A stretch of 52,676 bases of DNA from an uncultured Candidatus Saccharibacteria bacterium. Its GTDB lineage: Bacteria > Patescibacteriota > Minisyncoccia > Phycocordibacterales > UBA9973. Location: contig CAZOLF010000001.1 of assembly GCA_964580855.1 (NCBI GenBank), positions 1 through 52,676 on the forward strand, read 5' to 3'. The notes beneath the pieces were generated by a model, which ran no database searches, was not told the origin of the DNA, and saw nothing but the letters and a program-made list of their open reading frames with translations. Below are positions 38,396 through 50,760 of the stretch, piece after piece; position 1 is the first letter of the stretch; the number at the start of each line of letters is the position of its first letter. Both the position numbers and the translations under genes were made by a program.

Positions 38396-39304
38396 ATGAG
38401 CATACAAGCGTATCTACCTAGCAAATCATTTGGACTAAAAATTTTAATACTTTTAGTTGTTGTTCTTGTTGCTGGGTCACTTTATATATTCAAGCCCTTT
38501 AGTAAAGAAAATGCTCCATCCAAACTTGCCATAAAAATTAATGCGAATCCAGAAATGACCCTAGGGGATTTAATCACAACAGATAGTAACAAAAATTCTA
38601 TCCCAGATTGGGAAGAAACACTGTGGGGACTTGATCCGGAAGGTGATGGAGTAAGCAACAAAGCTATAATTGATTCCAAAAAGGCTTTGAGCGCCCCAGT
38701 TGACGAAGAAATCACAGATGGGACAGACCCAAGTGATAACTTAGCTAAAAAGCTCTTCGGAACAATCGTTTCCTTGAATCAAGTAGGGGAATTAGATAGC
38801 CAGACAATGGCATTAATATCTGCTGATGCAAGTGCTGAAGTGATAAACACAGACTTGGAAGATACATACAAGGCGGGGAACCTAAAGACAATAATCTCCA
38901 ACAAGACTAACTTGAGGAATTATCAAACTGCTGTAGGAAAAATAGTCGATAAATACGAGAATAGTAGTATTGGGGAAGAGTTAGCCATAGCTGGAGAAGG
39001 TGTTGAAAACGAAGACACGGAGACCCTGAACAAACTGGAGACGATATCACTGGATTACAAAAATTTAGCCTTAGATTTATCGCACGTAACAGTCCCAAGG
39101 GGGATTGCAGGATACCATCTAGATCTTATAAATTCTTATGACAAAATAGGGACAGCTCTTGAGCATATTATAGAATCAGTTGAAAATCCACTAGTAGGCC
39201 TAAGCGGGACCGGAATGTATAATAGATATGTACTAGAATCTGAAGAAGCTATCAATATGATAGAGGAAAATCTTATCGCAAATGGTATAATACAACAGGA
39301 ATAA
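38396..39304 (+). CDS. Hypothetical membrane-anchored protein with a degenerate Asp-rich (thrombospondin-type-3-like) motif
   Basis: N-terminal anchor LKILILLVVVLVAGSLYIF. TTDSNKNSIPDWEETLWGLDPEGDGVSN resembles D-x-D-G-x-x-DWEE Ca-binding repeats. TGG-TATAAT (38379-38387) lies 8 nt before the ATG. Confidence 0.7.
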   Translation: MSIQAYLPSKSFGLKILILLVVVLVAGSLYIFKPFSKENAPSKLAIKINANPEMTLGDLITTDSNKNSIPDWEETLWGLDPEGDGVSNKAIIDSKKALSAPVDEEITDGTDPSDNLAKKLFGTIVSLNQVGELDSQTMALISADASAEVINTDLEDTYKAGNLKTIISNKTNLRNYQTAVGKIVDKYENSSIGEELAIAGEGVENEDTETLNKLETISLDYKNLALDLSHVTVPRGIAGYHLDLINSYDKIGTALEHIIESVENPLVGLSGTGMYNRYVLESEEAINMIEENLIANGIIQQE

Positions 39305-39305
39305 A

Positions 39306-41717
39306 ATGTATACATCTTTTGTTAAAAATATCATAGTAATTTTTACAATCATTGGAATATTCATATCTCCTATTCAAATTACTTTCGCGGACACAATTGT
39401 AGACTTAACAGATAATTCAATTGATCCAAACACAGGGACAAACAATTCCGGCCAAACTCCAGGAGGGGAGACGGTAGCTAAAATCTCTGAAAAGTATGCT
39501 GGTTACGACAAATTGATTGGTTGTAAAAACGTCAGTAGCAGACTACTAGGAACACGGACCCTAGATGCATTGAACCGAATAGTTCCCTCCAATAAATCAA
39601 AAACAAATGCAAAAACATCCCAAGAAGTAACAAAAACCATTTTAAACAAAAACGGAGAGGCAATCCCTGTATACAATGAAGAACTCGCAAAAATAGCCGC
39701 CGACCAAGCTGCCACTAAAGCACTTGCTGAAAAGGAAGACGCCAGAGAAGAATGTCTAAATGGGCTATCTTACCGTATTGCAAAATTTTCTCTAGGCCAA
39801 ATCACAGACAAAACAGTCAACTATATAAATACTGGATTCAAAGGCGACTCATTTATCCTAAAAGACCAAAATTCCTACTTTTCCAGCTTGGAAAACAATG
39901 AAGCAGACCAGATCCTTGGTATTATTGGTAAATTCAAAAATAGGAAAGACTATCCTTACGGAAGGGAGTACGCGAGATCATTTTTAAATAACAGAATCAA
40001 TACATACGACTCCCGATCCCGATCTAGCATGACTTTTTTCCTTCCCAACGGAAATACAATACAAGATTATTCCAATGACTTTAGCAAGGGCGGATGGAAT
40101 GCTTGGTTTGGTTTAACACAGAACCCGCAGAACAACCCACTTGGCTTCGGGTTAATAACATCCGATGAGATAGCAAAGCGAAGCGCCAAAGCAACCCAAG
40201 AAGCTCTGAATGAACTTAACTGGGGAGATGGATTCCTCAGCCAAAAGAAATGCGTAAAACCCGAGGACTACACCGTAAGAAATAAAAAGAAAAATCCTTG
40301 CGTAAGATGGGAAACTGTAACTCCAGGAACAACAATCACTAACCAGCTCAACAAAGTTCTTGGGTCCCCTATAGACCAACTTGTAATGGCTGATGAAGTC
40401 AACGAATCGCTTTCTCAAGTTTTCGATGCGCTTATCAACCAAGCGATGGTATTTGGAGTAAGTAAAATCAAAAATAAAAAGAAGATAAACATCTCAGACA
40501 CTTTTGGAGGACCAGGAGAAAACAGGGTCTACGACAGTTTCGGGAATGATATTACAAGCACTTTCACAAGCTCGGCAAAAAGTGGATTATTTGGTGTCCC
40601 TGTCACTGGTAATTGGTATGATTCCAACTCGACATTTGATATCACAAAAGATTTAGCCAAAGTTATTAAAGACCAGACAAATTACTTAGAAGTATTGAAA
40701 GAGTCCGAAAAAGTTTTGCCAGAAATTGCCTATAGTATGCGCGAACTCGACTACTGTCTCCCTGGACCTCACCCAGGATGGGAAGCTAGCACCTATTCAA
40801 AAATCCAAGATTACATAGACTTCTTAAACGACACATCTGTTGATGCGGAAGGAAATGTGATTGTCCCTGAAGGAGCATATGAGCCAGGTTGGGTTACAAC
40901 AACGTTTGGAACACTTGGTAGTATTGGTGGCATGGTGGGCGGACCTGCAGGTTATGCACTACAAGGAATGACTATGATTCAAGGAGCAATCTCAAAAAAT
41001 AACCAAAGGAAAGACTCCGAAATGGTAGATAGAATCCAAAGGGTTGCTGATGCAGAAGAGAACCTAAACGAACACCTGCTAAGATACTCACAAATTATCA
41101 AACCAGAACTACTAGAAAGACAATTTGATGAATATCGAACTGAAATCTATAATCGTTATGGTGAAAACCTATACGAAAAAAATATTCCAGGGGCTTTAGA
41201 CATGCTAGCTCAACTCGATGGGATAGATTCCTTGGCAGAGACACTAGATGATTCATCGAGTGAGTATAGTGACACTATTAATGAAACAACATTAAACATT
41301 GCGAAGTTGAAAAGTATCCAAAGACAAGTGGCACAAATAATGTCTCAAAAATATGTAAAAGATCAAAGAGTTATCTGTGCGGCACAAGGCTTGCCAAACA
41401 ATCCAGGGAATAGTGGCTTGGTATCTAACAGCACAACTGGAACAAACTCTCCAAATTGTTCTATCACAAAACTTACATCAAAAACTCCGGTCACTAACTT
41501 TGACTCAAGTACTAAAAAAGTTTCTGCAAACACCCAAGTCATAGTTGCCTGGGAAACAGATAATTGTACAAATATATCAATCCCTGGGGTTGGTTACGGA
41601 TTGCCAAGCTCTGGGTCTAAAAATGTATACCCAAATGTAACTAATACATATAAATTAATAGCAAAAAATAGTGTCAGCTCTGATAACAAATCAATAACCG
41701 TTGAAGTAACCCCTTAA
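39306..41717 (+). CDS. Hypothetical 803-aa secreted protein
   Basis: Signal peptide MYTSFVKNIIVIFTIIGIFISPIQITFA. Starts 1 nt after the previous stop. The C-terminal ~90 aa look beta-rich and Ig-like. No family recognised. Confidence 0.8.
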   Translation: MYTSFVKNIIVIFTIIGIFISPIQITFADTIVDLTDNSIDPNTGTNNSGQTPGGETVAKISEKYAGYDKLIGCKNVSSRLLGTRTLDALNRIVPSNKSKTNAKTSQEVTKTILNKNGEAIPVYNEELAKIAADQAATKALAEKEDAREECLNGLSYRIAKFSLGQITDKTVNYINTGFKGDSFILKDQNSYFSSLENNEADQILGIIGKFKNRKDYPYGREYARSFLNNRINTYDSRSRSSMTFFLPNGNTIQDYSNDFSKGGWNAWFGLTQNPQNNPLGFGLITSDEIAKRSAKATQEALNELNWGDGFLSQKKCVKPEDYTVRNKKKNPCVRWETVTPGTTITNQLNKVLGSPIDQLVMADEVNESLSQVFDALINQAMVFGVSKIKNKKKINISDTFGGPGENRVYDSFGNDITSTFTSSAKSGLFGVPVTGNWYDSNSTFDITKDLAKVIKDQTNYLEVLKESEKVLPEIAYSMRELDYCLPGPHPGWEASTYSKIQDYIDFLNDTSVDAEGNVIVPEGAYEPGWVTTTFGTLGSIGGMVGGPAGYALQGMTMIQGAISKNNQRKDSEMVDRIQRVADAEENLNEHLLRYSQIIKPELLERQFDEYRTEIYNRYGENLYEKNIPGALDMLAQLDGIDSLAETLDDSSSEYSDTINETTLNIAKLKSIQRQVAQIMSQKYVKDQRVICAAQGLPNNPGNSGLVSNSTTGTNSPNCSITKLTSKTPVTNFDSSTKKVSANTQVIVAWETDNCTNISIPGVGYGLPSSGSKNVYPNVTNTYKLIAKNSVSSDNKSITVEVTP

Positions 41718-41725
41718 ATAATTTT

Positions 41726-44700
41726 ATGGAAAACAAACCCGAACAAACAAATCGATTTAAAGCTCTTTTAAAAAATAAGGCTTTTATAATTACTTTCATA
41801 GTATTCTTAATCCTTTTGATTGTGGGATATTTTGTAATTAAGAAACAACTTCTAACTCCGAGCGATAGTAACACCGAGGTAAAAAAGTTCACACCATTAT
41901 TTGGAACATCTAAAGAAAAAAATTTAACTTACCAAGGATTTTTAGATTGGGTCAGCAATGGGGGGAGTGACGGAGGAGATGACCTGAGAAATACCGTAAG
42001 AAATATACTAAACGGGGGAAGTACCGGATCCGATACTGGCGGAGATTCTAGTGGGGCAACGAACGGGAGTGGTAGTGGGGGAAGTGGAAGTGGTGGAGGT
42101 AGCGGAAATGAAAGTCTAAATGTTGGAATACTGGATGCTAACTCAATAAATCTTAGTGGGTCGGGGGTAACAGCTGGAGCAGATGGCTCAAATAGTGTAA
42201 CAATTAGTGGGTCGGGGGTAACAGCTGGAGCAGATGGCTCAAATAGTGTAACAATAACCAATGCTGATGGATCAAGCTCGGTAACAATAACAGGTCCTGG
42301 TGTGACAATTGATCCGACTAAAGCAAATACTGTAAAGATCACCGGCCCAGGTATTACAGTTACAAACAACGGAACAAATGGAGTCACACTCACAGGAAAT
42401 GGCATCAACACAGGACGATTAATAGGAACGGGTACAGGTACTGGAACAGGGGGAAGTACCTCGGGGAACAACACCGGAACTATTGGATCTGGATTAGGTG
42501 TAAATAATTGGGGCCCTAATAGTTATACAAAAACTCAATTCCAATGTAGTGATGGAATCGACAACGACAAAGATAATTTTATTGATGACAGAGATCCAGG
42601 ATGTCATAGCGATTTGAATCCAAACAATCGTAATTCTTTCACGCCAAATGCAAACAATGAGTATGATGTAGGGAGCGGAGGGGACCCATCTTCAGGACTT
42701 TATACTAAAACAAAAAACCAGTGTAGCGACTTCTTGGATAATGACAAAGACGGAAGTATTGATATCCAAGATCCAGGATGTCACAGTGATTACAATGCAC
42801 TTAATCCAAAATCTTTTACTCCCAATTTAAATATTGAAGATAAAGACAACGGTCAAGCTTTCCTTGGATGTATTACATCAAAGGGTGGTTATACAATTTC
42901 TGGAACTTTTGCTGGAGGGGTTGGAACAGGAACATATGAAGGCGGAACTACACTAGGAGGATCCTATACAAATGCCCAAACTGCTGGGGGAACTTATACC
43001 AAAGGAACAACAATTGGAGGAACATATATTCCGTCAACAACCACAAGTGTCAGCGGAACATGGGTTGGAAAACCAATTGCTCCACCACTTGCGCCAGGGG
43101 ACAGTAGTGGAACTTGGTTTGGGAATTGGCTGAATGGAATCGGTAATGGAACATGGGCAACTACAATGGTAGGATCCGGATCTGTCGCCCAGAATAATAA
43201 TGGAACATGGAATGGTGTTGGTGGAGGAGGTAGTACAACAGGAGGAGGAACAACAGGAATTCTAACCGGCGGGACAACTGGAACAACTACAGGAACAACT
43301 ACAGGAGGAACAACTGGCGGAACAGGATTGTTAACTGGAGGCACAACAGGAGGAGGGACAACTGGAGTTATAACAACAGGAGGAACTGGAACAACAACAG
43401 GGTTAACAACAGGTGGAACTACAGGATTAGTGACTGGGACTGGAGGCACAACAGGAAGTGGGACAGGAGCTCTTAGTCAAGGAACATGGGTTGGCAATGA
43501 TAAAGTTAGAACTTTTGTCGGCACAACAGGAAGTGGCACATGGACTACTCCACCAATAACAACCAAAGATTCATACAAAGGGGGGATCACAACTGGAGGA
43601 ATTTTCACTGGAGATGCAAATACAACATACACATCAGGTAAATTTACTCCAAATGCAAAAACTTACTACACAGATGGAAGATACATAAACGATACAATGA
43701 CTGGTGGAACTGTTGTAAACGCAACATACATCAGTCCAACTGGTAAAAAATATTCAGGAGGAACAGTTACAGGCGGAAAGTATACAGGAGGAGTTGTCCT
43801 TGGGGGAAATTATGAAGGTGGCACTCCTGTCGGTGGAACTTATGTAGGAGGCAACCCATCAGGCGGAATATACACTGGGGGAATTGCTACTGGTGGTACA
43901 TATCTAAATAATAAATTTTATACAAACGGAATTGTCACAGGAGGAATTTATAGCTCTGGGACAATCACACAAGGGAGATATTTGGGTGGGACAATTACAA
44001 AGGGTACTTACACAGGCCCACTACCTATAGGAGGAACTTATAGTGGGGGGACATATGTTGGTCCTGGATGTATCGCTCCGGTAAAACCACAGTGTGTGGA
44101 CGGAATAGACAATGACAAGGACGGACTCGTGGACAAAGATGACGCAAGTTGTCACTCAGATTTTGATTCTGCCAACGACTTTAGCTACAAAGAATATATT
44201 GATTCAGAAGATAGAATCAAAGACAAGCCAAACCCAAAACCAATTATTACCAAAACTTACCAATGTGGTGATGGAATCGACAACGACAAAGATACATTCA
44301 AAGACATCGATGATGCAGGATGTCACACAGACCTAACACTTGACCCTACAACTTTTGATCCAAAGATTGGGGACGAAAGTAGAGACTCGACAACTGACAC
44401 TAGTGGACTTTCGTACCAGTGTAGTGATGGGGTTGATAATGACAAAGATAAACTTGTTGATGAAAAAGACCCAGGGTGTCATATTGATTTCGATGCAACA
44501 AATCCTTCAACATATGTAACAACAATCCGAGAAGAGGTCCGTGATTACGTAGACCCAGAACCAAAAGATACAGACCCGAGTGACCCAAGTATCTGTGAAG
44601 AAAAAATTGTGCTAAATGCTGAAGACAGAGCAAAGATGGATCAACTACTTCGCGAATTTTATAGACTTGCTCCAACCCTTGCTACCACAGAGGATGTAGC

Positions 44701-45658
44701 AATAGAAAAACAAAACAAAGCACGCTACACAAGTAGTATCAACACAAATGAAAGGTTAACAAGCCAATGTTATGACGAAGTCACTGATCCAAAAAACCAG
44801 CCGTCAGCATCCAAATCAGGAGGGAAAAAATTTATGCTTGAAAGAGTTCTTGGGTCACCATTTGACGCACAAATGGCTCCAAAATTAACATTGCCTGAGT
44901 CAAAATCATTCTTGCCAAGTTATCAAGGCTCCCCATATGAAAAAACAATATCTGAACCATCAGACGATTTAAAAAATGTTTTCTTCCTTAATATGGCCCC
45001 AGATGCTTATGGCACAAACAAATACGGTGATAGTGACTACGACATCAGAATGAATGGAGCTTTGTTTGCAACAGATGTAAATACTGCTGTCTATCCTATC
45101 GCAATGCGTATTATGCAAGGACTTCACGATGCAGGAATACTCGAATACTATTTCCCTGATGATGCTGCAAACAAAGACCTTGAAACAGTGAAGAAGATAC
45201 TCGCAGACGAAATTGATCAATATATTGCTCACGTTCAACTAACAAGATCATCTTTTAGTAAGGATATGACTGGATTTTCAAACTGGGGAAGCCTCAACAA
45301 TAGTAAATACCCAACCAGTTCAAAGATAGGAACAATCATCGATGAATACTTACACTCAGATGATAAATTAGGCTCAAAACAAAGTGTGGCTACTCGAAAA
45401 GCCCTCAGTGTCCCTTGGATATTTGATGAGCAAGGTGACCCTAACGCAAAACCTTGGTCTCCACAGTATAGTTCGAATACCCCTTGGATTCCTCAGTTAA
45501 CAGGTATCACAAACACAAACACCCCTTGGAAGAGCTACCCTCCAGCGGAACCAGAATATAGATTTTTCTCAGCAGGAGCAATCTCAGAATACTTCCGATA
45601 TGACAGTAAAGTCATCAACCCATTTGAAGAATTCGAGAAATTGTTTAACGTCTGGTAA
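41726..45658 (+). CDS. Giant 1310-aa N-terminally anchored surface protein: Gly/Ser/Thr-rich tracts, GGxY solenoid-like repeats, five Cys-bracketed Asp-rich modules
   Basis: N-terminal TM AFIITFIVFLILLIVGYFVI. See the repeat features below. The antisense Pro-rich ORFs 41929..42474 and 42994..43449 are shadows of GGN codons. Confidence 0.85.
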   Translation: MENKPEQTNRFKALLKNKAFIITFIVFLILLIVGYFVIKKQLLTPSDSNTEVKKFTPLFGTSKEKNLTYQGFLDWVSNGGSDGGDDLRNTVRNILNGGSTGSDTGGDSSGATNGSGSGGSGSGGGSGNESLNVGILDANSINLSGSGVTAGADGSNSVTISGSGVTAGADGSNSVTITNADGSSSVTITGPGVTIDPTKANTVKITGPGITVTNNGTNGVTLTGNGINTGRLIGTGTGTGTGGSTSGNNTGTIGSGLGVNNWGPNSYTKTQFQCSDGIDNDKDNFIDDRDPGCHSDLNPNNRNSFTPNANNEYDVGSGGDPSSGLYTKTKNQCSDFLDNDKDGSIDIQDPGCHSDYNALNPKSFTPNLNIEDKDNGQAFLGCITSKGGYTISGTFAGGVGTGTYEGGTTLGGSYTNAQTAGGTYTKGTTIGGTYIPSTTTSVSGTWVGKPIAPPLAPGDSSGTWFGNWLNGIGNGTWATTMVGSGSVAQNNNGTWNGVGGGGSTTGGGTTGILTGGTTGTTTGTTTGGTTGGTGLLTGGTTGGGTTGVITTGGTGTTTGLTTGGTTGLVTGTGGTTGSGTGALSQGTWVGNDKVRTFVGTTGSGTWTTPPITTKDSYKGGITTGGIFTGDANTTYTSGKFTPNAKTYYTDGRYINDTMTGGTVVNATYISPTGKKYSGGTVTGGKYTGGVVLGGNYEGGTPVGGTYVGGNPSGGIYTGGIATGGTYLNNKFYTNGIVTGGIYSSGTITQGRYLGGTITKGTYTGPLPIGGTYSGGTYVGPGCIAPVKPQCVDGIDNDKDGLVDKDDASCHSDFDSANDFSYKEYIDSEDRIKDKPNPKPIITKTYQCGDGIDNDKDTFKDIDDAGCHTDLTLDPTTFDPKIGDESRDSTTDTSGLSYQCSDGVDNDKDKLVDEKDPGCHIDFDATNPSTYVTTIREEVRDYVDPEPKDTDPSDPSICEEKIVLNAEDRAKMDQLLREFYRLAPTLATTEDVAIEKQNKARYTSSINTNERLTSQCYDEVTDPKNQPSASKSGGKKFMLERVLGSPFDAQMAPKLTLPESKSFLPSYQGSPYEKTISEPSDDLKNVFFLNMAPDAYGTNKYGDSDYDIRMNGALFATDVNTAVYPIAMRIMQGLHDAGILEYYFPDDAANKDLETVKKILADEIDQYIAHVQLTRSSFSKDMTGFSNWGSLNNSKYPTSSKIGTIIDEYLHSDDKLGSKQSVATRKALSVPWIFDEQGDPNAKPWSPQYSSNTPWIPQLTGITNTNTPWKSYPPAEPEYRFFSAGAISEYFRYDSKVINPFEEFEKLFNVW
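42155..42256 (+). repeat. Near-perfect 51-bp tandem duplication (2 copies)
   Basis: agtgggtcgggggtaacagctggagcagatggctcaaatagtgtaacaat occurs at 42155 and again at 42206. Encodes SGSGVTAGADGSNSVTI twice. Confidence 0.9.
42542..42790 (+). repeat. Cys-bracketed Asp-rich modules 1-2 (24 aa each)
   Basis: QCSDGIDNDKDNFIDDRDPGCHSD (42542-42613) and QCSDFLDNDKDGSIDIQDPGCHSD (42719-42790). Confidence 0.85.
43216..43470 (+). repeat. Gly/Thr low-complexity tract
   Basis: GGGGSTTGGGTTGILTGGTTGTTTGTTTGGTTGGTGLLTGGTTGGGTTGVITTGGTGTTTGLTTGGTTGLVTGTGGTTGSGTG. Confidence 0.85.
44090..44488 (+). repeat. Cys-bracketed Asp-rich modules 3-5
   Basis: QCVDGIDNDKDGLVDKDDASCHSD (44090-44161), QCGDGIDNDKDTFKDIDDAGCHTD (44261-44332), QCSDGVDNDKDKLVDEKDPGCHID (44417-44488). 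Module 4 shares gatggaatcgacaacgacaaagata with module 1. Confidence 0.85.
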
Positions 45659-45660
45659 TA

Positions 45661-45699
45661 AAAACCATCCCCCACCAAATTGGTGGGGGATGGTTTTTA
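45661..45699 (+). terminator. Strong intrinsic terminator
   Basis: Perfect 17-bp stem: aaaaccatcccccacca (45661-45677) pairs with tggtgggggatggtttt (45681-45697). Confidence 0.85.
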
Positions 45700-45750
45700 A
45701 AATTTAAGTTGAAAACTATTGAATAAAGCATTTAAAAGATATAAAGTAAA

Positions 45751-45759
45751 TGCTATAAT
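45751..45759 (+). promoter_or_regulatory. Extended -10 element of leaderless type for the T4SS-like operon
   Basis: TGC-TATAAT lies 8 nt before the ATG at 45768. The -35 is weak. Confidence 0.45.
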
Positions 45760-45767
45760 ACAAAGGC

Positions 45768-48554
45768 ATGAAGAGACTAGGTTCGTACATTCTTATATTA
45801 CTTATATTAGTGAATATCTTCGCACCTTTTAGTGTATTTTTAGACGAGAATAAAAATATAAATATTGAAAAGACCATCGCGAATGCTGCAAGCCTTGCAG
45901 ACCCTAAAGATGAAGCAATGAGGCAAGTTGCAAAGAAAGAATGTCTTGAAACAGAACCTGACCCAAAAGGCCCACCTGTAGAATTTTGTCTGCAAGCAAG
46001 ATATGAAGCAAACGGGACCAAGGTTGTAATAAAAGCTTACACCATAGGGATTAACCGGGGAGGAAAAGATACTTACTTCGTAAAAATTGAGATCAAAGAT
46101 AGCCTTCAAAAGATAGTAAGAACTCTTGTTACTACTTTTGGATCAAGCGAAATAGATGAAAAAGATGTATCCTCCGATCAAGGCATCGAAGCTAATTACA
46201 AAAATGCTGACAAAACTATTCCGTGGGATGGACGAATGTTTACATCTGATGAGATTGAATTAAATGCAAATGAAAGCTACAGCTTCGATGTATATGTCCA
46301 AAAAAGTGACATGAACAGCACAACATGGACGAAAACTTTTCCATTAAAATTAACGATTGGGGGAAGTGGAACCAGCTCATCTGGAAGCACTGATGTCACA
46401 ACTTCTGCTCCTTCCGGCGAAGAAGATGTACTTCCAGATTGTGTATTCGCTCATCCTGTGGACGGAACGATTATGGGTTGTGTTGCTCAAGTAATATACT
46501 ATGCGGTCTTTGTGCCGACATCGTGGTTATTTGGAGCTTCTGGAATGTTCTTTGATTATATTTTTGCTTATTCAATCAATGACACTACATACAGATCCCA
46601 ATTCGTAACAGAAGGTTGGGGCATAGTTCGAGATTTGTGCAATATTTTCTTTATATTTATACTTTTATATGCAGCCTTCAAAATGATTCTTTCGATCGGA
46701 CATGACTCCAAAGGAATTATCATAAGTGTTATTATTATCGGCCTCTTGATCAATTTCAGTCTTTTTGCTGGACAAGTAATGATTGACGCTTCCAATATTT
46801 TAGCCAGATTATTTTACAACTCTGAGGCTCTCAAGGTTACGGTTACAGGGGACACAGGCAAGGTGATGAAGGGAGGTGCTGTTGTGTATGAAGAAGGGCG
46901 AGGAGGCCATATTCCAATATCCGCTGCAATTATAAACAAGGTAAACCCACAAAATATAATTATTGGGGCAAGAAAAATTTCGCAAGTCACTCTTGATGAT
47001 GGCCAAGTTGGAAGTGGATCTATAGATACAAGTGGAAAAACAAATATAAATACAGATCAAGCCAGCATGGGTGCTGGGTCATTCCTCCTTATTACTGTAC
47101 TTGCGACCATAATCAACGTTGTCGGTATTGTGGTATTCCTTTCTGTCGGGTTAATGTTCGTCGGAAGAATTATTGGTCTATGGTTTGCAATGATTGTCGC
47201 TCCGCTTGCATTCCTAAGCTATACAGTACCCAACATGCGTGATATGGAATTCGTCGGTTGGAAAAAGTGGTGGCCAGAAACTCTCAAGCTTGCATTCCTT
47301 GCTCCGATATTTATGTTCTTTATGTATTTGATGATAATGTTCCTTGAAAATGGTTTCAAGGTTATCGAAAAGGCGAGTGCTGGACCAAACTGGGCTCTCG
47401 AAACTATGATCCCATTTATCTTCATAATGGTATTCCTATTGATGGCAAAAAAGGTGGCCAAGGGATTATCCGGAACAATCGGGCAAACTATTACAAAAGG
47501 TGTAGCTACGACTGGAGCATTGGCGCTCGGAGGAGCGGCGATTGGTACTGGGTTACTATTACGCAAAGGAATTGGTCAAACTATGGCCAGAGCTTCTCGT
47601 GGAGAAACTTTAACGCAAAGATATGAAGCTGGAACAAGTAAGACACTCTTCGGGAAAGGGGTTGGTTGGGCTGGTTCTAAACTAGGCTTAGGTAAAGTAT
47701 TTGGTAATACTTATGATGTAAATACCAGAACAATAGATAGTGGACTAGGAGGTAAACTAAACAGAACACAGCATGCTGTTGAACATGCGGACCATGCAAA
47801 ACAGGAATTAAAGGAAACAAAAGAAAAAGCACACATTACAGTTGACGATCATATGCTTTCAGGAGAGGATGCACAAGCAATGCAGAGAGCCTATGGTAAA
47901 ACTAAAAAGAGTGAATTTGAGGCTGATATTCGAAAAGGTAATGTCAAAGGAATTGACCCTAAAACTGGTGAACGAACAAAAGATATAAGCGAAGACGGTT
48001 ACAAAGCTGCAAACAGAGCCCAAGCCAGTGTAGATGCTGAAGCAGAATACCGAACAGAAAATAAGATTCCTGCTGGCAAAAAACTAACTGCTGATCAGAA
48101 CAAACAAGTTGAAAAAGCAACGGAGAATAAATTAAGTAGTGATTATAATACAAAAGTTTTGAAAGTTGAGCTCGACAAGAAAATTGCTACGGACTTCAAA
48201 AATGTTCTTGACACGGCAAGAGCAGGAGCAAACGTATTTGATAGAGTTATTGCAGGTGCAAATAAATATAGCTTCGATGCAAGAAAACTATCGGAAGTAA
48301 AAGCAGACAAGCTCGCTCATCCTCTAGTGAAGATGGGTGCAGGCGCTATCGCAGGTATTGCTATGGGTGTTCGTATGGGAATGAATCATGGAATCGGAGC
48401 AGACCAAGGTAAAGCCACAGGTGATGCAATGAAAGATCTAGGTAATCTAATCAAAGATTCATTGAAAAATCTAAAAGTAGAAGTTAAGATCCCTGAAAGT
48501 AGCGGAGGCGGACATGATGACCACGGAGGTGGCGGGGGAGGTGGACATCACTAA
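45768..48554 (+). CDS. VirB6/TrbL-like polytopic membrane protein with large N-terminal ectodomain and charged C-terminal tail (928 aa)
   Basis: Signal/anchor, beta-rich domain of about 200 aa, about 7-8 TM segments (VIYYAVFVPTSWLFGASGMFFDYIF..., IFFIFILLYAAFKMIL..., IIGLWFAMIVAPLAFLSY...), Lys/Glu-rich tail ending SSGGGHDDHGGGGGGGHH. Topology and position next to PrgI/VirB4 suggest a VirB6 analogue. No sequence search was run. Confidence 0.55.
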   Translation: MKRLGSYILILLILVNIFAPFSVFLDENKNINIEKTIANAASLADPKDEAMRQVAKKECLETEPDPKGPPVEFCLQARYEANGTKVVIKAYTIGINRGGKDTYFVKIEIKDSLQKIVRTLVTTFGSSEIDEKDVSSDQGIEANYKNADKTIPWDGRMFTSDEIELNANESYSFDVYVQKSDMNSTTWTKTFPLKLTIGGSGTSSSGSTDVTTSAPSGEEDVLPDCVFAHPVDGTIMGCVAQVIYYAVFVPTSWLFGASGMFFDYIFAYSINDTTYRSQFVTEGWGIVRDLCNIFFIFILLYAAFKMILSIGHDSKGIIISVIIIGLLINFSLFAGQVMIDASNILARLFYNSEALKVTVTGDTGKVMKGGAVVYEEGRGGHIPISAAIINKVNPQNIIIGARKISQVTLDDGQVGSGSIDTSGKTNINTDQASMGAGSFLLITVLATIINVVGIVVFLSVGLMFVGRIIGLWFAMIVAPLAFLSYTVPNMRDMEFVGWKKWWPETLKLAFLAPIFMFFMYLMIMFLENGFKVIEKASAGPNWALETMIPFIFIMVFLLMAKKVAKGLSGTIGQTITKGVATTGALALGGAAIGTGLLLRKGIGQTMARASRGETLTQRYEAGTSKTLFGKGVGWAGSKLGLGKVFGNTYDVNTRTIDSGLGGKLNRTQHAVEHADHAKQELKETKEKAHITVDDHMLSGEDAQAMQRAYGKTKKSEFEADIRKGNVKGIDPKTGERTKDISEDGYKAANRAQASVDAEAEYRTENKIPAGKKLTADQNKQVEKATENKLSSDYNTKVLKVELDKKIATDFKNVLDTARAGANVFDRVIAGANKYSFDARKLSEVKADKLAHPLVKMGAGAIAGIAMGVRMGMNHGIGADQGKATGDAMKDLGNLIKDSLKNLKVEVKIPESSGGGHDDHGGGGGGGHH

Positions 48555-48571
48555 TAGATAATTAAAATAAT

Positions 48572-49639
48572 ATGGACCAAACACAATTACAACAAAAAAT
48601 AGCTGAATACTTTGCAAAATTGCCTCCAAATGCGCAAGCTATGTTTCAGAGCATGGGGTGGCTCGATGCTTTGGAAATTATTAGCCAAAAGTATTCTCTC
48701 ACTCAAACCCAAAAAGAATCGCTAGGCACAGAGACAACACTACTACTACTAGGAATAATTCACCCAGATGAATACACAAAGTTTCTAATAAATGGACTCT
48801 CTATACCAAAAGGAATAAGCGAGAAGATTATGATAGATGTAAACACAAATATATTGAATGAATTCAAAGATGAATTAGAAAATACTTATAACAAAAATGC
48901 TGAAGAATTAGCGGAAAAGGAATACGGTGGGAAGATCACGTTGGATGAAAGATTTAAAAGTCTTCCCGAGGAAGTTCAAGATGCAATCCTTAATTCCAAT
49001 TACCAAATCAAACTTGCCGAAATTGCAACACGAAATAACTTGAGTATAGCGCAGATGGCAATCCTGGAAAAAACTACCAACAAAGTCTTGTTGGCTATAA
49101 TTCACCCAAATGAATTCAACAAAGCTTTAAGCACAGAATTGAATTTACCTCAAGATAAAATCAATACGCTTATAGATAGTGTGAATGAAGAAGTAATCAA
49201 AAGTATCCGAGCAATCCTTTTGGGCCACGCAGAAGAAAAGAAGGATACTCTATCAGAGGAGCCTCCTGTCCCTCTTCCGCCACCTTCTAGTTTCAAACCA
49301 GCCCCAAAGGTAGAGCAAATCAACACTACCCCGACATCTCCACTAATCGGCAATTATCAGACTCCTATAGCAAATGATCCTCCAGTGCCTAAAGTAGCCA
49401 CAACTCCAGAAAAGGTTTTTGCAGAAAGTAATATTGAAATCCTACCTCAAAACCCAATGATGGGCGCAAATAGTATGATAGGCCAAAGACTTTCTACTCC
49501 TTTTGCCCAAGCTCCGACAATAAGCACAAATACCCCAGCCCAAAGTTCTTCGCCTACTGCAACATTAGAATTCAAAGAAGACCCGGCAAAGAAGACTCAA
49601 GACCCAAAAAGAGATCCTTATCACGAAGCAATAACTTAA
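48572..49639 (+). CDS. Hypothetical protein with an internally duplicated helical domain and a Pro-rich tail
   Basis: KLPPNAQAMFQSMGWLDALEIISQKYSLTQTQKESLGTETTLLLLGIIHPDEY... aligns with KSLPEEVQDAILNSNYQIKLAEIATRNNLSIAQMAILEKTTNKVLLAIIHPNEF.... C-terminus is EPPVPLPPPSSFKPAPK.... Confidence 0.7.
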   Translation: MDQTQLQQKIAEYFAKLPPNAQAMFQSMGWLDALEIISQKYSLTQTQKESLGTETTLLLLGIIHPDEYTKFLINGLSIPKGISEKIMIDVNTNILNEFKDELENTYNKNAEELAEKEYGGKITLDERFKSLPEEVQDAILNSNYQIKLAEIATRNNLSIAQMAILEKTTNKVLLAIIHPNEFNKALSTELNLPQDKINTLIDSVNEEVIKSIRAILLGHAEEKKDTLSEEPPVPLPPPSSFKPAPKVEQINTTPTSPLIGNYQTPIANDPPVPKVATTPEKVFAESNIEILPQNPMMGANSMIGQRLSTPFAQAPTISTNTPAQSSSPTATLEFKEDPAKKTQDPKRDPYHEAIT

Positions 49640-49642
49640 CAT

Positions 49643-50047
49643 ATGCAATTCAAAGTTCCACAATTTATAGATATTGAGGACAAATTATTTGGCCCTTTAA
49701 CCTTCAAACAATTTGCTTACCTTGCAGGAGGTGGCGGTATGATCTATGTATTGTATAAACTTTTACCTTTCTTTATTGCTATTATTCTGATTGTTCCAGT
49801 AGGATTATTTGCCCTTGCTCTAGCATTCTACAAAATAAATGAAAAGCCTTTTCTTTATTATCTCCAAGCAGGGATAACATACGCTACAAAAAGCAAATTA
49901 TATGTATGGAGACAAAAGTTTAAAAAGGTAGAAGCAAAAGATGAAGCAGAGGTTGAAAAAGTGTCCTATATCCCAAATGTTTCATCTAATAGAATCAGGG
50001 ATTTATCATGGAGTTTAGATGTTTTGGATAAAAACAAAGATAAATAG
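49643..50047 (+). CDS. PrgI-family (VirB3-like) small T4SS membrane protein
   Basis: MQFKVPQFIDIEDKLFGPLTFKQFAYLAGGG followed by two TM helices. This is the characteristic PrgI-family N-terminus and size (134 aa), and the gene lies just upstream of virB4. Confidence 0.7.
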   Translation: MQFKVPQFIDIEDKLFGPLTFKQFAYLAGGGGMIYVLYKLLPFFIAIILIVPVGLFALALAFYKINEKPFLYYLQAGITYATKSKLYVWRQKFKKVEAKDEAEVEKVSYIPNVSSNRIRDLSWSLDVLDKNKDK

Positions 50048-50103
50048 CTACGAGAAATAGAATAAACTTACCAATTTAGTGAAGAACCGTGTATAATTAA
50101 AAT

Positions 50104-50760
50104 ATGAAGCTTAATGCGCGTAGAACTCAAGAATTCGTACCGATAAAAGAAATACGAGATGGTATCATAATACTCAAAGACGGGGGACTCCGTTGTGTAC
50201 TTATTGCATCTTCTATCAACCTGTCGCTAAAAGCCGAGGAAGAGCAGAGGGCAATCATAAACCAATTTCAATCATTTTTAAATGGGCTCGATTTTACTAC
50301 TCAGATATCGGTACAATCAAGACGTTTAGACATAAGACCGTATTTATTAAGACTGGAGAATCGCATGCAGGAACAAGTTGAACCTTTGATCAAAACTCAA
50401 ACAAAAGAATATATCGAATTTATCCGAAGGTTTACCGAAGAGGTAAACATAATGACTAAGAGCTTTTTTGTTGTAGTCCCATATAGCGGAGATTCATCTT
50501 CGAATAAAAAAAGTGGAGTTGAAAAACTTCTTGACCTTGGAAGCAGAAGTGAGAAGATGAAAGGAAAGACCAAAAAGGAAGAAGACATGGTCAGCTTCGA
50601 GGAGAAACGCTCCCAACTTGACCAGCGCATCAATGTTATCGTCGAAGGATTGGCAGGGCTTGGAGTTCAGGTTTCGCAATTAAATACAGAAGAAATTATC
50701 GAGCTTTTTTATAAAACATTTAATCCTGGAGATATAAGTCAGGGGATAAAATTGTCATGA
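50104..50760 (+). CDS. VirB4 N-terminal-domain-like protein (CagE/TrbE/VirB-type), translationally coupled to the ATPase ORF
   Basis: TQEFVPIKEIRDGIIILKDGGLRCVLIASSINLSLKAEEEQRAIINQFQSFLNGLDFTTQISVQSRRLDI follows the pattern of the first ~70 aa of long VirB4/TrbE proteins. The stop overlaps the next start (ATGA at 50757-50760). Confidence 0.45.
   Translation: MKLNARRTQEFVPIKEIRDGIIILKDGGLRCVLIASSINLSLKAEEEQRAIINQFQSFLNGLDFTTQISVQSRRLDIRPYLLRLENRMQEQVEPLIKTQTKEYIEFIRRFTEEVNIMTKSFFVVVPYSGDSSSNKKSGVEKLLDLGSRSEKMKGKTKKEEDMVSFEEKRSQLDQRINVIVEGLAGLGVQVSQLNTEEIIELFYKTFNPGDISQGIKLS

What the first reader, a model, noticed from the sequence alone, without database searches (positions are those of the whole stretch)
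41726..45658. Giant surface protein with five Cys-bracketed Asp-rich 24-aa modules (candidate Ca-binding knots)
Seen: five copies of Q-C-x-D-[GF]-[ILV]-D-N-D-K-D-x-x-x-D-x-x-D-[PA]-[GS]-C-H-x-D. They lie at 42542-42613, 42719-42790, 44090-44161, 44261-44332 and 44417-44488. Each is followed by a short N/P/T-rich linker. They are arranged 2 + 3 around a core of about 1.3 kb of Gly/Thr tracts and GGTY/GGxY repeats (for example GGTVTGGKYTGGVVLGGNYEGGTPVGGTYVGGNPSGGIYTGGIATGGTY), which suggests a beta-solenoid. Established: D-x-D-x-D-G loops held by disulfides bind Ca2+ in thrombospondin type-3 repeats, and C-x-DG-x-DND-C-DG motifs occur in some secreted bacterial proteins. The invariant C-H-x-D after the second Cys is not part of those motifs as I remember them. 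Inference: a metal-stabilised, extended adhesin or stalk.
Basis: partly seen in the sequence, partly recalled or inferred. Interest (0 to 1): 0.6.

Follow-up and report, generated by a model that had tools for sequence, protein, structure and literature searches.

The report
Calcium-module surface protein beside secretion machine
A 1310-residue membrane-anchored surface protein of an ultrasmall (Patescibacteria) bacterium carries five copies of an already catalogued, probably calcium-binding, disulfide-closed repeat; what is less ordinary is that the gene sits in the cell's type IV secretion locus and is the locus's fastest-changing gene.

Summary
ORF 41726-45658 (+) encodes 1310 aa, and the five modules lie at exactly the stated coordinates.

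The modules are not new. They match NCBIfam NF033662 (acidic double-disulfide repeat) at 122.8 bits against a cut-off of 41. Their best solved relative is the Ca2+-binding C-rich domain of teneurin-4 (PDB 7PLP). Seven of its nine side-chain ligands and its C838-C857 disulfide are kept in all five copies. This scan reached the same answer at least eight times on other DNA.

C-H-x-D belongs to a roughly 42-aa unit that is common in CPR and DPANN surface proteins.

The beta-solenoid idea is untested. The GGxxxGGxY array has a strict 5/10-residue period, but AlphaFold gives no fold (pLDDT 37).

What is specific to this locus:
- The gene sits between a secreted protein and the VirB6-like and VirB4 genes of the Patescibacteria T4SS.
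- It belongs to an undescribed family with an N-terminal anchor, a variable ectodomain, a two-Cys helical hairpin and a C-terminal N-[IVL]-W. There are 338 cluster representatives, and the gene is single-copy in 56 of 64 genomes of the genus.
- The acidic modules are optional inserts.
- It is the most divergent gene of the locus.

Best reading: a calcium-stiffened stalk carrying a variable tip next to the T4SS. A role in host contact is inferred, not shown.

The parts
41726..45658 (+). Whole gene: 1310-aa bitopic surface protein, a member of the anchor / hairpin / N-[IVL]-W family
   Evidence: ORF list. Positional orthologues at the same place in eight related genomes.
41726..41839 (+). Basic N-terminal tail (aa 1-18) and a single hydrophobic anchor (aa 19-38, AFIITFIVFLILLIVGYFVI). 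No signal-peptidase site is evident, so the topology is N-in / C-out.
   Evidence: Read from the sequence. The N-terminus M-E-x-N-P-K-K-S-K-A-x-I-I-T-F-I is conserved in orthologues.
41840..42538 (+). Spacer 1: conserved F-x-P-L-x-G-T-S-K motif (aa 55-63), then a Gly/Ser/Thr/Asn-rich low-complexity region with 17-aa repeats
   Evidence: Composition. The motif appears in the orthologue consensus.
42153..42255 (+). Perfect 2 x 51-bp tandem duplication inside spacer 1
   Evidence: Tandem Repeats Finder: period 51, 2.0 copies, 100% matches.
42539..42661 (+). Acidic module 1 (C274-C293) with its H-x-D...N-x-x-S-F...E tail
42716..42838 (+). Acidic module 2 (C333-C352) with tail
42869..44071 (+). Core bracketed by C382 and C782: Gly/Thr/Tyr/Trp-rich, no Asp-rich modules. 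The fold is unknown.
   Evidence: Cys positions, composition. AlphaFold2 mean pLDDT 36.9.
43208..43480 (+). Gly/Thr tract (aa 495-585; G+T about 80%), probably disordered
   Evidence: Composition. Only weak periodicity. pLDDT about 30-38.
43754..43903 (+). Five perfect decapeptides x-G-G-x-x-x-G-G-x-Y (aa 677-726), continued more loosely on both sides
   Evidence: Gly autocorrelation at lag 5 z = 7.9 and Tyr at lag 10 z = 8.0, against 2000 shuffles. Not found in any orthologue retrieved.
44087..44209 (+). Acidic module 3 (C790-C809) with tail
   Evidence: AlphaFold2 pLDDT 73-80.
44258..44377 (+). Acidic module 4 (C847-C866) with tail
   Evidence: pLDDT 80-84.
44414..44536 (+). Acidic module 5 (C899-C918) with tail
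   Evidence: pLDDT 83-89.
44594..44770 (+). Conserved two-helix hairpin closed by C957 and C1015 (C...F-T-x-E-E...L-L-R-x-F-Y-x-I-A-P-x-L...L-T-x-Q-C), the family signature
   Evidence: Alignments A2, A4 and A5. Helices at aa 965-984 and 988-1020, pLDDT 60-75. 292 cluster representatives at E <= 1e-10.
44771..45625 (+). Lineage-specific insert of about 285 aa between the hairpin and the C-terminal motif. No detectable relatives except partly in two genomes.
   Evidence: No Pfam hit at E <= 10. pLDDT below 50.
45626..45655 (+). Conserved C-terminal end E-E-F-E-K-L-F-N-V-W-COOH
   Evidence: 148 of 150 family representatives end in W, and 115 end in N-[IVL]-W. E and W are invariant in A4 and A5.
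38396..41717 (+). Context: two conserved upstream envelope genes (302-aa anchored protein, 803-aa signal-peptide protein). The stop of the second lies 9 nt before this gene's ATG.
45768..52598 (+). Context: T4SS core downstream.
   Evidence: VirB4: NF045971, 375.8 bits against a cut-off of 325. Same gene order in eight relatives.

Best explanation
The gene encodes a bitopic protein with its N-terminus in the cytoplasm, and about 1270 residues lie outside the cell.

The ectodomain has two glycine-rich spacers. It has five acidic modules of about 42 aa. Each module is a 20-residue loop closed by one disulfide, and its Asp/Asn side chains chelate Ca2+ as in the teneurin C-rich domain and in thrombospondin type-3 repeats. 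It ends in a small two-Cys helical hairpin, a lineage-specific insert of about 285 aa, and a conserved N-V-W carboxy-terminus.

The protein is the local, much expanded member of a small undescribed family. That family is encoded directly upstream of the VirB6-like and VirB4 genes of the chromosomal type IV secretion system in Nomurabacteria-like Paceibacteria.

Shown:
- the architecture
- membership of the repeat family
- conservation of the ligand positions
- presence of a disulfide-forming system in the genome
- synteny with the T4SS
- single-copy conservation in the genus
- extreme divergence of the gene

Inferred:
- Ca2+ is the metal, and it rigidifies the modules into stiff beads.
- The protein works as a stalk that carries its variable distal part through the envelope beside the secretion channel.
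- That distal part contacts the host cell or another external partner.
For: Modules:
- NF033662 scores 122.8 bits against a cut-off of 41, in five stretches.
- The module profile finds teneurin-4 7PLP first, with the alignment pqCsDgiDNDkDglvDdkDpgC against [22 protein letters not shown].
- The paper assigns Ca2+ ligands E835, D840, D843, N844, D845, D847, D851, D854 and D856, and a C838-C857 disulfide (PMC9058538). The equivalents of D840, D843, N844, D845, D847, D851, D854 and of both Cys are present in all five modules.
- These positions are invariant in 43 copies from nine loci (the window and eight related genomes).
- AlphaFold2 gives the three C-terminal modules pLDDT 73-89.

Disulfide chemistry: the genome encodes VKOR (98 bits) and a DsbA-like thioredoxin (69 bits).

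Topology: there is one N-terminal hydrophobic segment preceded by five basic residues.

T4SS link:
- The gene order PcrA, RsmA, 300-aa anchored protein, 700-1200-aa secreted protein, this gene, VirB6-like..., VirB4 is the same in eight relatives.
- In 16 of 80 VirB4-centred loci the family gene is present. It is always on the same strand, 4.6-7 kb upstream of VirB4.
- The gene is single-copy in 56 of 64 genomes of the genus that are at least 90% complete.

Exposure and variability:
- VirB4 is 81-88% identical to its relatives and RsmA 57-65%. This protein aligns over only 99-313 residues, at 31-51%.
- Orthologue lengths in the retrieved same-genus genomes range from 273 to 1348 aa, with 0 to 11 modules.
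- The 2025 survey found no adhesin for Patescibacteria T4SSs (PMC12102498).
Against: - No metal binding was measured, and AlphaFold2 does not model ions.
- The PDB match is short, compositionally biased and only borderline significant (E = 0.0013).
- Two teneurin ligands (E835, D856) and two of its three disulfides have no counterpart, so the number of Ca2+ sites per module is unknown.
- The link to the T4SS rests on gene order alone.
- Most of the more distant T4SS loci examined go straight from the secreted protein to VirB6 and lack this gene. It is therefore not a core component.
- The distal 285 aa and the 400-aa core gave no confident fold and no structural match. A binding function for either is pure inference.
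- Rapid divergence could reflect relaxed constraint on a spacer and not selection for new partners.
Confidence: 0.5

Rival explanations
1. The protein is an envelope-spanning scaffold and not an adhesin. It is a structural accessory that helps the T4SS cross the wall or S-layer. Its hairpin and N-V-W end dock on a neighbouring component, and the variable middle is only an unconstrained spacer of adjustable length.
For: - The conserved parts are the two ends (the anchor, and the hairpin with N-[IVL]-W), while everything between them varies.
- Minimal 272-340-aa members have only a low-complexity linker between the ends, with no modules and no tip.
- VirB8-like and VirB1-like parts are rarely detected in Patescibacteria (PMC12102498).
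Against: - Most related T4SS loci lack the gene.
- There is no similarity to VirB8, VirB1 or any Pfam, NCBIfam or PDB entry.
- In this genome a specific 285-aa insert sits distal to the hairpin. A pure spacer would not need it.
Confidence: 0.22
2. The modules bind a transition metal (Zn2+ or Cu), not Ca2+. They would use the conserved His and Asp of C-H-x-D, in the manner proposed for MopE-type 'putative metal-binding motifs'.
For: - His follows the second Cys in 50 of 62 orthologue modules, usually as H-x-D.
- There is a weak hit to PF11617 Cu-binding_MopE.
- One homologue is annotated as a 'putative metal-binding motif-containing protein'.
Against: - The PF11617 hit is far below threshold (10.4 bits against 27, E = 0.8).
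- A single His per module is a poor Zn or Cu site.
- The seven invariant oxygen ligands match a solved Ca2+ site.
- In unrelated proteins most modules of the repeat (215 of 338) have no His at that position.
Confidence: 0.08
3. It is an ordinary cell-surface protein whose position next to the T4SS has no functional meaning.
For: - NF033662 modules occur in very many unrelated surface proteins: with PKD, CARDB, DUF11, vWA, peptidoglycan-binding and cellulase domains.
- The T4SS locus lies in a conserved housekeeping neighbourhood (RsmA, PcrA) near the origin (PMC12102498).
Against: - The gene is found only at this position: 16 of 16 occurrences in the VirB4-centred loci and all eight fetched genomes.
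- It is single-copy.
- It was not found elsewhere in four genomes whose T4SS locus lacks it.
- It is packed 9 nt after the preceding gene.
- No terminator-like site lies in the 110 nt before the VirB6-like gene.
Confidence: 0.1
4. It is a polymorphic toxin or effector: a conserved delivery part carrying a variable C-terminal payload.
For: The region after a conserved motif is hypervariable.
Against: - The extreme C-terminus is conserved (N-[IVL]-W), which is unlike swapped toxin tips.
- The protein is anchored by an N-terminal transmembrane segment.
- No small immunity-like gene follows; VirB6 does.
- No toxin domain appears in Pfam.
- Minimal members have almost no variable part.
Confidence: 0.04

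Closest known systems
NCBIfam NF033662, acid_disulf_rpt (acidic double-disulfide repeat-containing protein)
   Same: All five modules match the model. The whole protein scores three times the curated cut-off. The same repeat occurs in 31 of 36 genomes of the genus and in 10 of 24 other families of the order sampled.
   Different: - The family name implies two disulfides per repeat. These copies have one Cys pair, and matches cover model positions 3-29 of 32.
- The family is a catalogue entry. No paper in the searchable library uses its name.
Teneurin C-rich domain (human teneurin-4 residues 834-871, PDB 7PLP; Meijer et al. 2022, PMC9058538)
   Same: - It shares the core C-x-D-x-x-D-N-D-x-D-G-L-V-D-x-x-D-P-x-C.
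- Seven of the nine side-chain Ca2+ ligands and the first (1-3) disulfide are conserved.
- Like this protein, it is an extracellular domain of a type II membrane protein.
   Different: - Teneurin has six Cys and three disulfides, plus a conotoxin-like C-terminal half. Here there are two Cys and a different tail (H-x-D...N-P-x-S-Y...E).
- Teneurin has a single copy. Here there are five.
- The E835 and D856 equivalents are missing.
- The match is borderline (E = 0.0013).
Thrombospondin type 3 repeats (PDB 1UX6; Pfam PF02412)
   Same: - The D-x-D-x-D-G-x-x-D-x-x-D motif lies within a disulfide-closed loop.
- The teneurin paper equates its Ca2+ sites I and II with T3 geometry.
   Different: There is no Pfam TSP_3 hit even at E <= 10 and no thrombospondin among the PDB hits. 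The resemblance is at motif level only.
Surface adhesins of Gram-positive conjugation systems (for example PrgB of pCF10)
   Same: Both are large surface proteins encoded with a monoderm-type T4SS (VirB4 of the CD1110 family). Both have a presumed role in contact with the partner cell.
   Different: - No sequence similarity was detected.
- This protein is anchored by an N-terminal transmembrane segment, not by an LPXTG signal.
- The survey of Patescibacteria found no PrgB-like adhesin.
Elastomeric Gly/Tyr pentapeptide repeats (flagelliform-silk GPGGX type; from my own knowledge)
   Same: Both have a strict 5-residue GGxxx period with Tyr in every second unit.
   Different: There is no Pro in most units, there are only about ten units, and no homology was tested. 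This is a resemblance recalled from memory, not a test.

Membership tests
NCBIfam NF033662 acid_disulf_rpt | Whole-protein HMM score above the curated cut-off of 41 bits | tested here: met
   122.8 bits, E = 3.1e-36, five stretches.
NCBIfam NF033662 acid_disulf_rpt | Two disulfides (four Cys) per repeat, as the family name implies | tested here: inconclusive
   Each module has only two Cys. I could not read the model's consensus. Near-maximal scores for two-Cys copies (47.8 bits over 24 positions) suggest that the model core itself holds two Cys.
Teneurin C-rich domain (7PLP) | Detectable sequence relationship | tested here: met
   The module profile gives 7PLP as its best PDB hit, E = 0.0013. 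Five more teneurin sequences follow, down to E = 0.03.
Teneurin C-rich domain (7PLP) | Six Cys forming disulfides 1-3, 2-5 and 4-6 | tested here: not met
   Only the 1-3 pair has counterparts. The C852 position is D, I, K, I or E in the five modules, and C858 is His.
Teneurin C-rich domain (7PLP) | Eight acidic residues plus one Asn coordinating three Ca2+ | tested here: inconclusive
   Seven of nine are conserved in all five modules. The E835 and D856 equivalents are absent. The paper's text does not assign ligands to individual sites.
Teneurin C-rich domain / TSP type 3 | Ca2+ actually bound | not testable with these tools
   This needs ITC, DSF, ICP-MS or a structure.
Thrombospondin type 3 repeat (PF02412) | Pfam model match | tested here: not met
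   No hit at E <= 1 for the whole protein or at E <= 10 for module segments.
MopE-type putative metal-binding motif (PF11617) | Pfam model match above 27 bits | tested here: not met
   10.4 bits, E = 0.8, on the three-module segment only.
Beta-solenoid / pentapeptide-repeat / RTX beta-roll | Regular repeat predicted or known to stack as a solenoid | tested here: inconclusive
   Periods of 5 and 10 residues are confirmed. AlphaFold2 of aa 370-790 gives pLDDT 36.9 with the array as coil. There is no Pfam pentapeptide or RTX hit, and the array has no Asp for an RTX-type site.
Patescibacteria-clade T4SS locus (Quinonero-Coronel et al. 2025) | Encoded with a Patescibacteria-clade VirB4 and its partner genes | tested here: met
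   VirB4 (NF045971, 375.8 bits) lies 5.1 kb downstream on the same strand. Synteny holds in eight relatives.
Patescibacteria-clade T4SS locus (Quinonero-Coronel et al. 2025) | Homology to a named T4SS component (VirB1, 2, 3, 5, 6, 8, PrgB and so on) | tested here: not met
   Nothing in Pfam, NCBIfam, PHROGs or PDB for the conserved C-terminal core or for minimal family members. CONJScan profiles were not available.

The most novel reading that the evidence does not exclude
The anchor / hairpin / N-[IVL]-W family is a so far unrecognised extracellular component of the essential Patescibacteria T4SS in Nomurabacteria-like lineages. Its conserved C-terminal strand and Trp would dock on the channel, either on the VirB6 ectodomain or on the neighbouring secreted protein. 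Its freely expandable ectodomain, here stiffened by five Ca2+ modules, would be the missing host-contact arm that sets host range.
Probability: 0.2. Interest if true: 0.65.

Novelty: new member of a known kind. Interest (0 to 1): 0.38.

Why it matters
The repeat itself adds little. It is catalogued, it has a solved calcium-binding relative in teneurins, and this scan has already met it many times.

The context is the useful part. Patescibacteria depend on a chromosomal T4SS for life on their hosts, and the 2025 survey found no adhesin and few wall-spanning parts for it. Here a single-copy gene sits inside that locus. It is anchored in the membrane, conserved only at its two ends, and diverges faster than any neighbour. 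Its length ranges from about 270 to over 1300 residues within the genus (up to 1865 among related proteins in public databases).

That makes it a concrete, testable candidate for the part of the machine that faces the host. It also gives a defined family (338 cluster representatives) that could be added to T4SS annotation sets. If it proves to be only a spacer, the result is still a clean annotation of a giant hypothetical protein.

Tried and rejected
- **Pfam on the whole protein, on module segments and on the C-terminal 386 aa:** nothing. PHROGs also gave nothing.
- **Word-indexed homologue search with the C-terminal 386 aa:** it found only the protein itself. Relatives appeared only with six-frame and profile searches.
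- **The search for related loci with the 13-sequence hairpin alignment:** I scanned genome contigs with VirB4 instead.
- **Hairpin profile A2 over 150 genomes of the class:** no match outside the window's own genome. The family is narrow or diverges beyond that profile. The later A5 profile reached relatives whose VirB4 is 75-80% identical.
- **AlphaFold2 of aa 780-1310 with 14 sequences:** the modules and the hairpin were modelled, and the remainder was below pLDDT 50. Foldseek against PDB was meaningless, with best E = 6.6.
- **AlphaFold2 of the core, aa 370-790:** no fold.
- **PDB and Pfam searches with the C-terminal core profile:** no hit. NCBIfam on minimal members gave nothing either.
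- **Cluster look-up for names of orthologues:** none carry a name.
- **Promoter and terminator scan:** no more sites than in shuffles.
- **Readings rejected:** RTX beta-roll (period 5/10 and not 9, no Asp), a sortase or CTERM sorting signal (no C-terminal hydrophobic helix), and a polymorphic toxin (conserved extreme C-terminus, no immunity gene).

Full report
**1. Observation**

The window holds an intact ORF at 41726-45658 (+) of 1310 aa under table 11. They are at aa 274-296, 333-355, 790-812, 847-869 and 899-921.

The protein has 14 Cys, all in obvious pairs:
- ten in the five modules
- C382 and C782, flanking the Gly/Thr/Tyr-rich core
- C957 and C1015, in the C-terminal part

The quoted GGxY string is at aa 678-726.

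**2. What the module is**

Pfam finds nothing. NCBIfam finds NF033662, 'acidic double-disulfide repeat-containing protein', with five stretches at 122.8 bits against a curated cut-off of 41, E = 3.1e-36. A six-frame search of the whole 593-kb, 30-contig genome (71% complete) finds these five copies only. None of 14 control genomes has the repeat.

The repeat is present in 31 of 36 sampled genomes of the same genus and in 10 of 24 other families of the order.

Forty-three copies taken from nine loci (the window and eight related genomes) show C1, D6, D8, D10, D14, D17 and C20 invariant, with D3 and N7 nearly so. They also share a conserved tail: H21 in 37 of 43, D23 in 34 of 43, then N-P-x-S-[YF] and an acidic Glu near +39 (alignment A1).

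Position 15 is never Cys in the 62 orthologue modules counted (2 of 338 in unrelated proteins). This is a single-disulfide form, despite the family name.

The C-H-x-D feature is not special to this protein. It follows the second Cys in 50 of 62 orthologue modules. It also does so in 123 of 338 modules of unrelated proteins retrieved by homology search. The other common subtype has C-[SAGT]-x-x-x-D-[ND]-[DN]-E.

**3. Link to a solved calcium site**

A profile of 20 modules searched against all PDB sequences gives the 49-residue teneurin-4 C-rich domain (7PLP) as its best hit. E is 0.0013, and further teneurins follow. EF-hand proteins and lanmodulin appear only at E above 0.2. The aligned stretch is [22 protein letters not shown].

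The paper describing that 1.5 A structure reports three octahedrally coordinated Ca2+ ions. They are held by E835, D840, D843, N844, D845, D847, D851, D854 and D856 and by three backbone carbonyls. The disulfides are C838-C857, C852-C863 and C858-C869. Sites I and II resemble thrombospondin type-3 repeats, and site III resembles LDL-receptor class A modules (PMC9058538).

The numbering maps without ambiguity onto the aligned string. In all five window modules the equivalents of D840, D843, N844, D845, D847, D851 and D854, and of the C838-C857 pair, are present. E835, D856, C852 and C858 have no equivalent.

I conclude that the modules very probably bind Ca2+ in the T3-like manner. The number of sites per module is open. 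The His/Asp/Glu tail may replace the missing part of the teneurin domain, but that is an inference.

Other evidence:
- AlphaFold2 models modules 3-5 with pLDDT 73-89. No coordinates were available to me, so I could not check geometry.
- The genome encodes VKOR and a DsbA-like thioredoxin, so extracytoplasmic disulfides are plausible.
- TSP_3 (PF02412) does not match at all, and MopE-type PF11617 reaches only 10.4 bits.

I reached NF033662 and the teneurin link before looking at earlier notes of this scan. Those notes show the same family and the same teneurin link found at least eight times on other DNA.

**4. The rest of the protein**

- **aa 1-38:** a basic tail and one hydrophobic segment with no evident cleavage site. 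This is a signal anchor with the bulk of the protein outside the cell.
- **aa 39-270:** Gly/Ser/Thr/Asn-rich. It includes a perfect 2 x 51-bp tandem duplication at 42153-42255.
- **Core between C382 and C782:** a Gly/Thr tract, with G+T about 80% at aa 495-585, and the GGxY region.
- **C-terminal part (aa 957-1310):** described under section 6 (C-terminal family).

In aa 655-780, Gly autocorrelates at lag 5 (z = 7.9), lag 10 (6.8) and lag 15 (6.3). Tyr autocorrelates at lag 10 (z = 8.0) and lag 20 (6.6), against 2000 shuffles. Residues 677-726 are five perfect decapeptides x-G-G-x-x-x-G-G-x-Y.

No orthologue retrieved has such an array. AlphaFold2 of aa 370-790, run as a single sequence, gives mean pLDDT 36.9 with the array as coil. 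A beta-solenoid is therefore neither supported nor excluded. A flexible or elastic spacer is at least as likely.

**5. Genomic context**

The gene starts 9 nt after an 803-aa signal-peptide protein. 110 nt after its stop comes a 928-aa polytopic protein, then small genes, and then a VirB4 ATPase at 50757-52598 (NF045971, CD1110 family, 375.8 bits against a cut-off of 325). This is the chromosomal Patescibacteria T4SS described by Quinonero-Coronel et al. 2025. That survey reports KsgA/RsmA nearby, finds few VirB8 or VirB1 homologues, and states that no adhesins such as PrgB were detected (PMC12102498).

Eight related genomes have the same order: PcrA, RsmA, an anchored protein of about 295 aa, a secreted protein of 720-1220 aa, this gene, VirB6-like, a protein of about 350 aa, a 217-aa protein, and VirB4.

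Identity to the window falls from the cytoplasm outwards:

| Gene | Identity to the window |
|---|---|
| VirB4 | 81-88% |
| 217-aa protein | 65-69% |
| PcrA / RsmA | 57-68% |
| VirB6-like | 35-44% |
| The two upstream envelope proteins | 27-39% |
| This gene | alignable over only 99-313 residues, at 31-51% |

Record titles of the VirB4-centred loci name Candidatus Nomurabacteria, Paceibacteria and Parcubacteria RAAC4_OD1_1.

**6. The family behind the gene**

Fourteen orthologues from the protein database share three features:
- the N-terminus M-E-x-N-P-K-K-S-K-A-x-I-I-T-F-I
- a two-Cys helical domain, C...F-T-x-E-E-x-A-x-L...L-L-R-x-F-Y-x-I-A-P-x-L...L-T-x-Q-C
- an end E-x-x-[FL]-x-[IV]-W

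In the window protein the helices are aa 965-984 and 988-1020, with pLDDT 60-75.

In VirB4-centred loci the gene ranges from 272-340-aa minimal forms up to the giant forms. The minimal forms consist of the anchor, a low-complexity linker, the hairpin, about 60 further residues and the N-[IL]-W end, with no acidic modules.

A profile of the C-terminal core (A5) finds 338 cluster representatives among 1.84 billion, 292 of them at E <= 1e-10. The domain is always at the C-terminus. Of the best 150:
- 148 end in Trp, and 115 end in N-[IVL]-W.
- The median length is 390 aa.
- Only 54 carry acidic modules.
- The window's protein is the second longest.

Distribution:
- Within the genus the domain is found once per genome in 56 of 64 genomes that are at least 90% complete.
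- It was not found in four genomes whose T4SS locus lacks it.
- It was not found in 150 genomes sampled across the class with an earlier, weaker profile.
- Of 80 VirB4-centred loci, 16 have it. In all 16 it lies on the same strand, 4.6-7 kb upstream of VirB4. Most of the more distant loci go straight from the secreted protein to VirB6.

The core has no match in Pfam, NCBIfam or PDB.

The acidic modules are therefore optional inserts into the ectodomain of a lineage-specific, T4SS-linked membrane protein. The same modules are scattered over many unrelated surface proteins of CPR bacteria, DPANN archaea and others.

**7. Mechanism**

Shown:
- topology, from the sequence
- repeat family membership
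- conservation of ligand positions
- presence of an oxidative folding system
- synteny and single-copy status
- divergence gradient across the locus

Inferred:
- Each module folds around Ca2+ into a rigid bead.
- Beads and Gly-rich spacers together form a long arm from the membrane.
- The conserved hairpin and terminal Trp form an interaction module.
- The lineage-specific distal insert faces the outside and meets the host.

I give the Ca2+ reading about 0.8. I give a functional link to the T4SS about 0.6, and the host-contact role about 0.35-0.4. The main rival is a purely structural, length-adjustable envelope-spanning accessory.

**8. Verdict**

The motif is already catalogued and was seen repeatedly in this scan, and the solenoid idea remains untested.

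The residual interest lies in the T4SS-embedded anchor / hairpin / N-[IVL]-W family, which I could not find described. It is a reasonable candidate for the missing outward-facing part of the Patescibacteria T4SS in this lineage.

Noticed in passing
window 45626-45655; family-wide: The protein ends E-E-F-E-K-L-F-N-V-W. Of the 150 best family representatives, 148 end in Trp and 115 end in N-[IVL]-W. In minimal members the end reads R-[IL]-N-[IL]-W, which alternates like a beta-strand. Its role is unknown; docking or strand complementation are possibilities.
   Followed up: partly
window 42869-42871 and 44069-44071 (C382, C782): The only two Cys outside the modules and the hairpin sit exactly at the two borders of the 400-aa Gly/Thr/Tyr core. 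A long-range disulfide may therefore close the core into a loop.
   Followed up: no
window 42153-42255: There is a perfect 2 x 51-bp tandem duplication (100% matches) encoding SGSGVTAGADGSNSVTI twice. This is a recent expansion inside spacer 1.
   Followed up: partly
L038:3272-6532, L040:2831-6091, L042:3227-5734, L043:2272-5940, L039:4717-7542: In relatives, the secreted protein encoded just upstream (the counterpart of window 39306-41717) carries one acidic module near its C-terminus. The window's 803-aa copy has none by the strict pattern.
   Followed up: no
L065:827-3760: This genome lacks the family gene. Here the upstream 977-aa secreted protein ends in F-E-N-F-L-N-I-Y, which resembles the family's E-x-x-[FL]-x-N-[IV]-W end. 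This is a single example.
   Followed up: no
window 38396-52598: Conservation falls in steps across the locus: VirB4 81-88%, housekeeping genes 57-68%, VirB6-like 35-44%, and the three envelope proteins 27-39% or less. The extracellular parts of this T4SS locus evolve much faster than its motor.
   Followed up: partly
G000:C12:154-525 (-) and G000:C6:7654-8097 (-): This 593-kb reduced genome keeps a VKOR homologue (98 bits) and a DsbA-like thioredoxin (69 bits). That fits its many Cys-paired surface proteins.
   Followed up: partly
window 45731-45759: A promoter-like site (TTTAAA, 17 nt, TG-extended TATAAT, 10 of 12 matches) lies just before the VirB6-like gene. No terminator-like hairpin lies in the 110-nt gap. 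Overall, such sites are no more frequent than in shuffled sequence.
   Followed up: no
G260:C4:34403-34738, G023:C1:653161-653559, G254:C3:21868-22320, G248:C1:48255-48656, G084:C13:41808-42224: In several genomes of the genus the match to the C-terminal core contains in-frame stop codons (one to five). The gene may be decaying or frameshifted there.
   Followed up: no
L048-L127 record titles: Many close relatives are deposited as 'uncultured Candidatus Saccharibacteria' (TPA assemblies). Their VirB4 and locus organisation group them with Nomurabacteria/Paceibacteria records, so the label is probably a generic or wrong taxonomic assignment.
   Followed up: no
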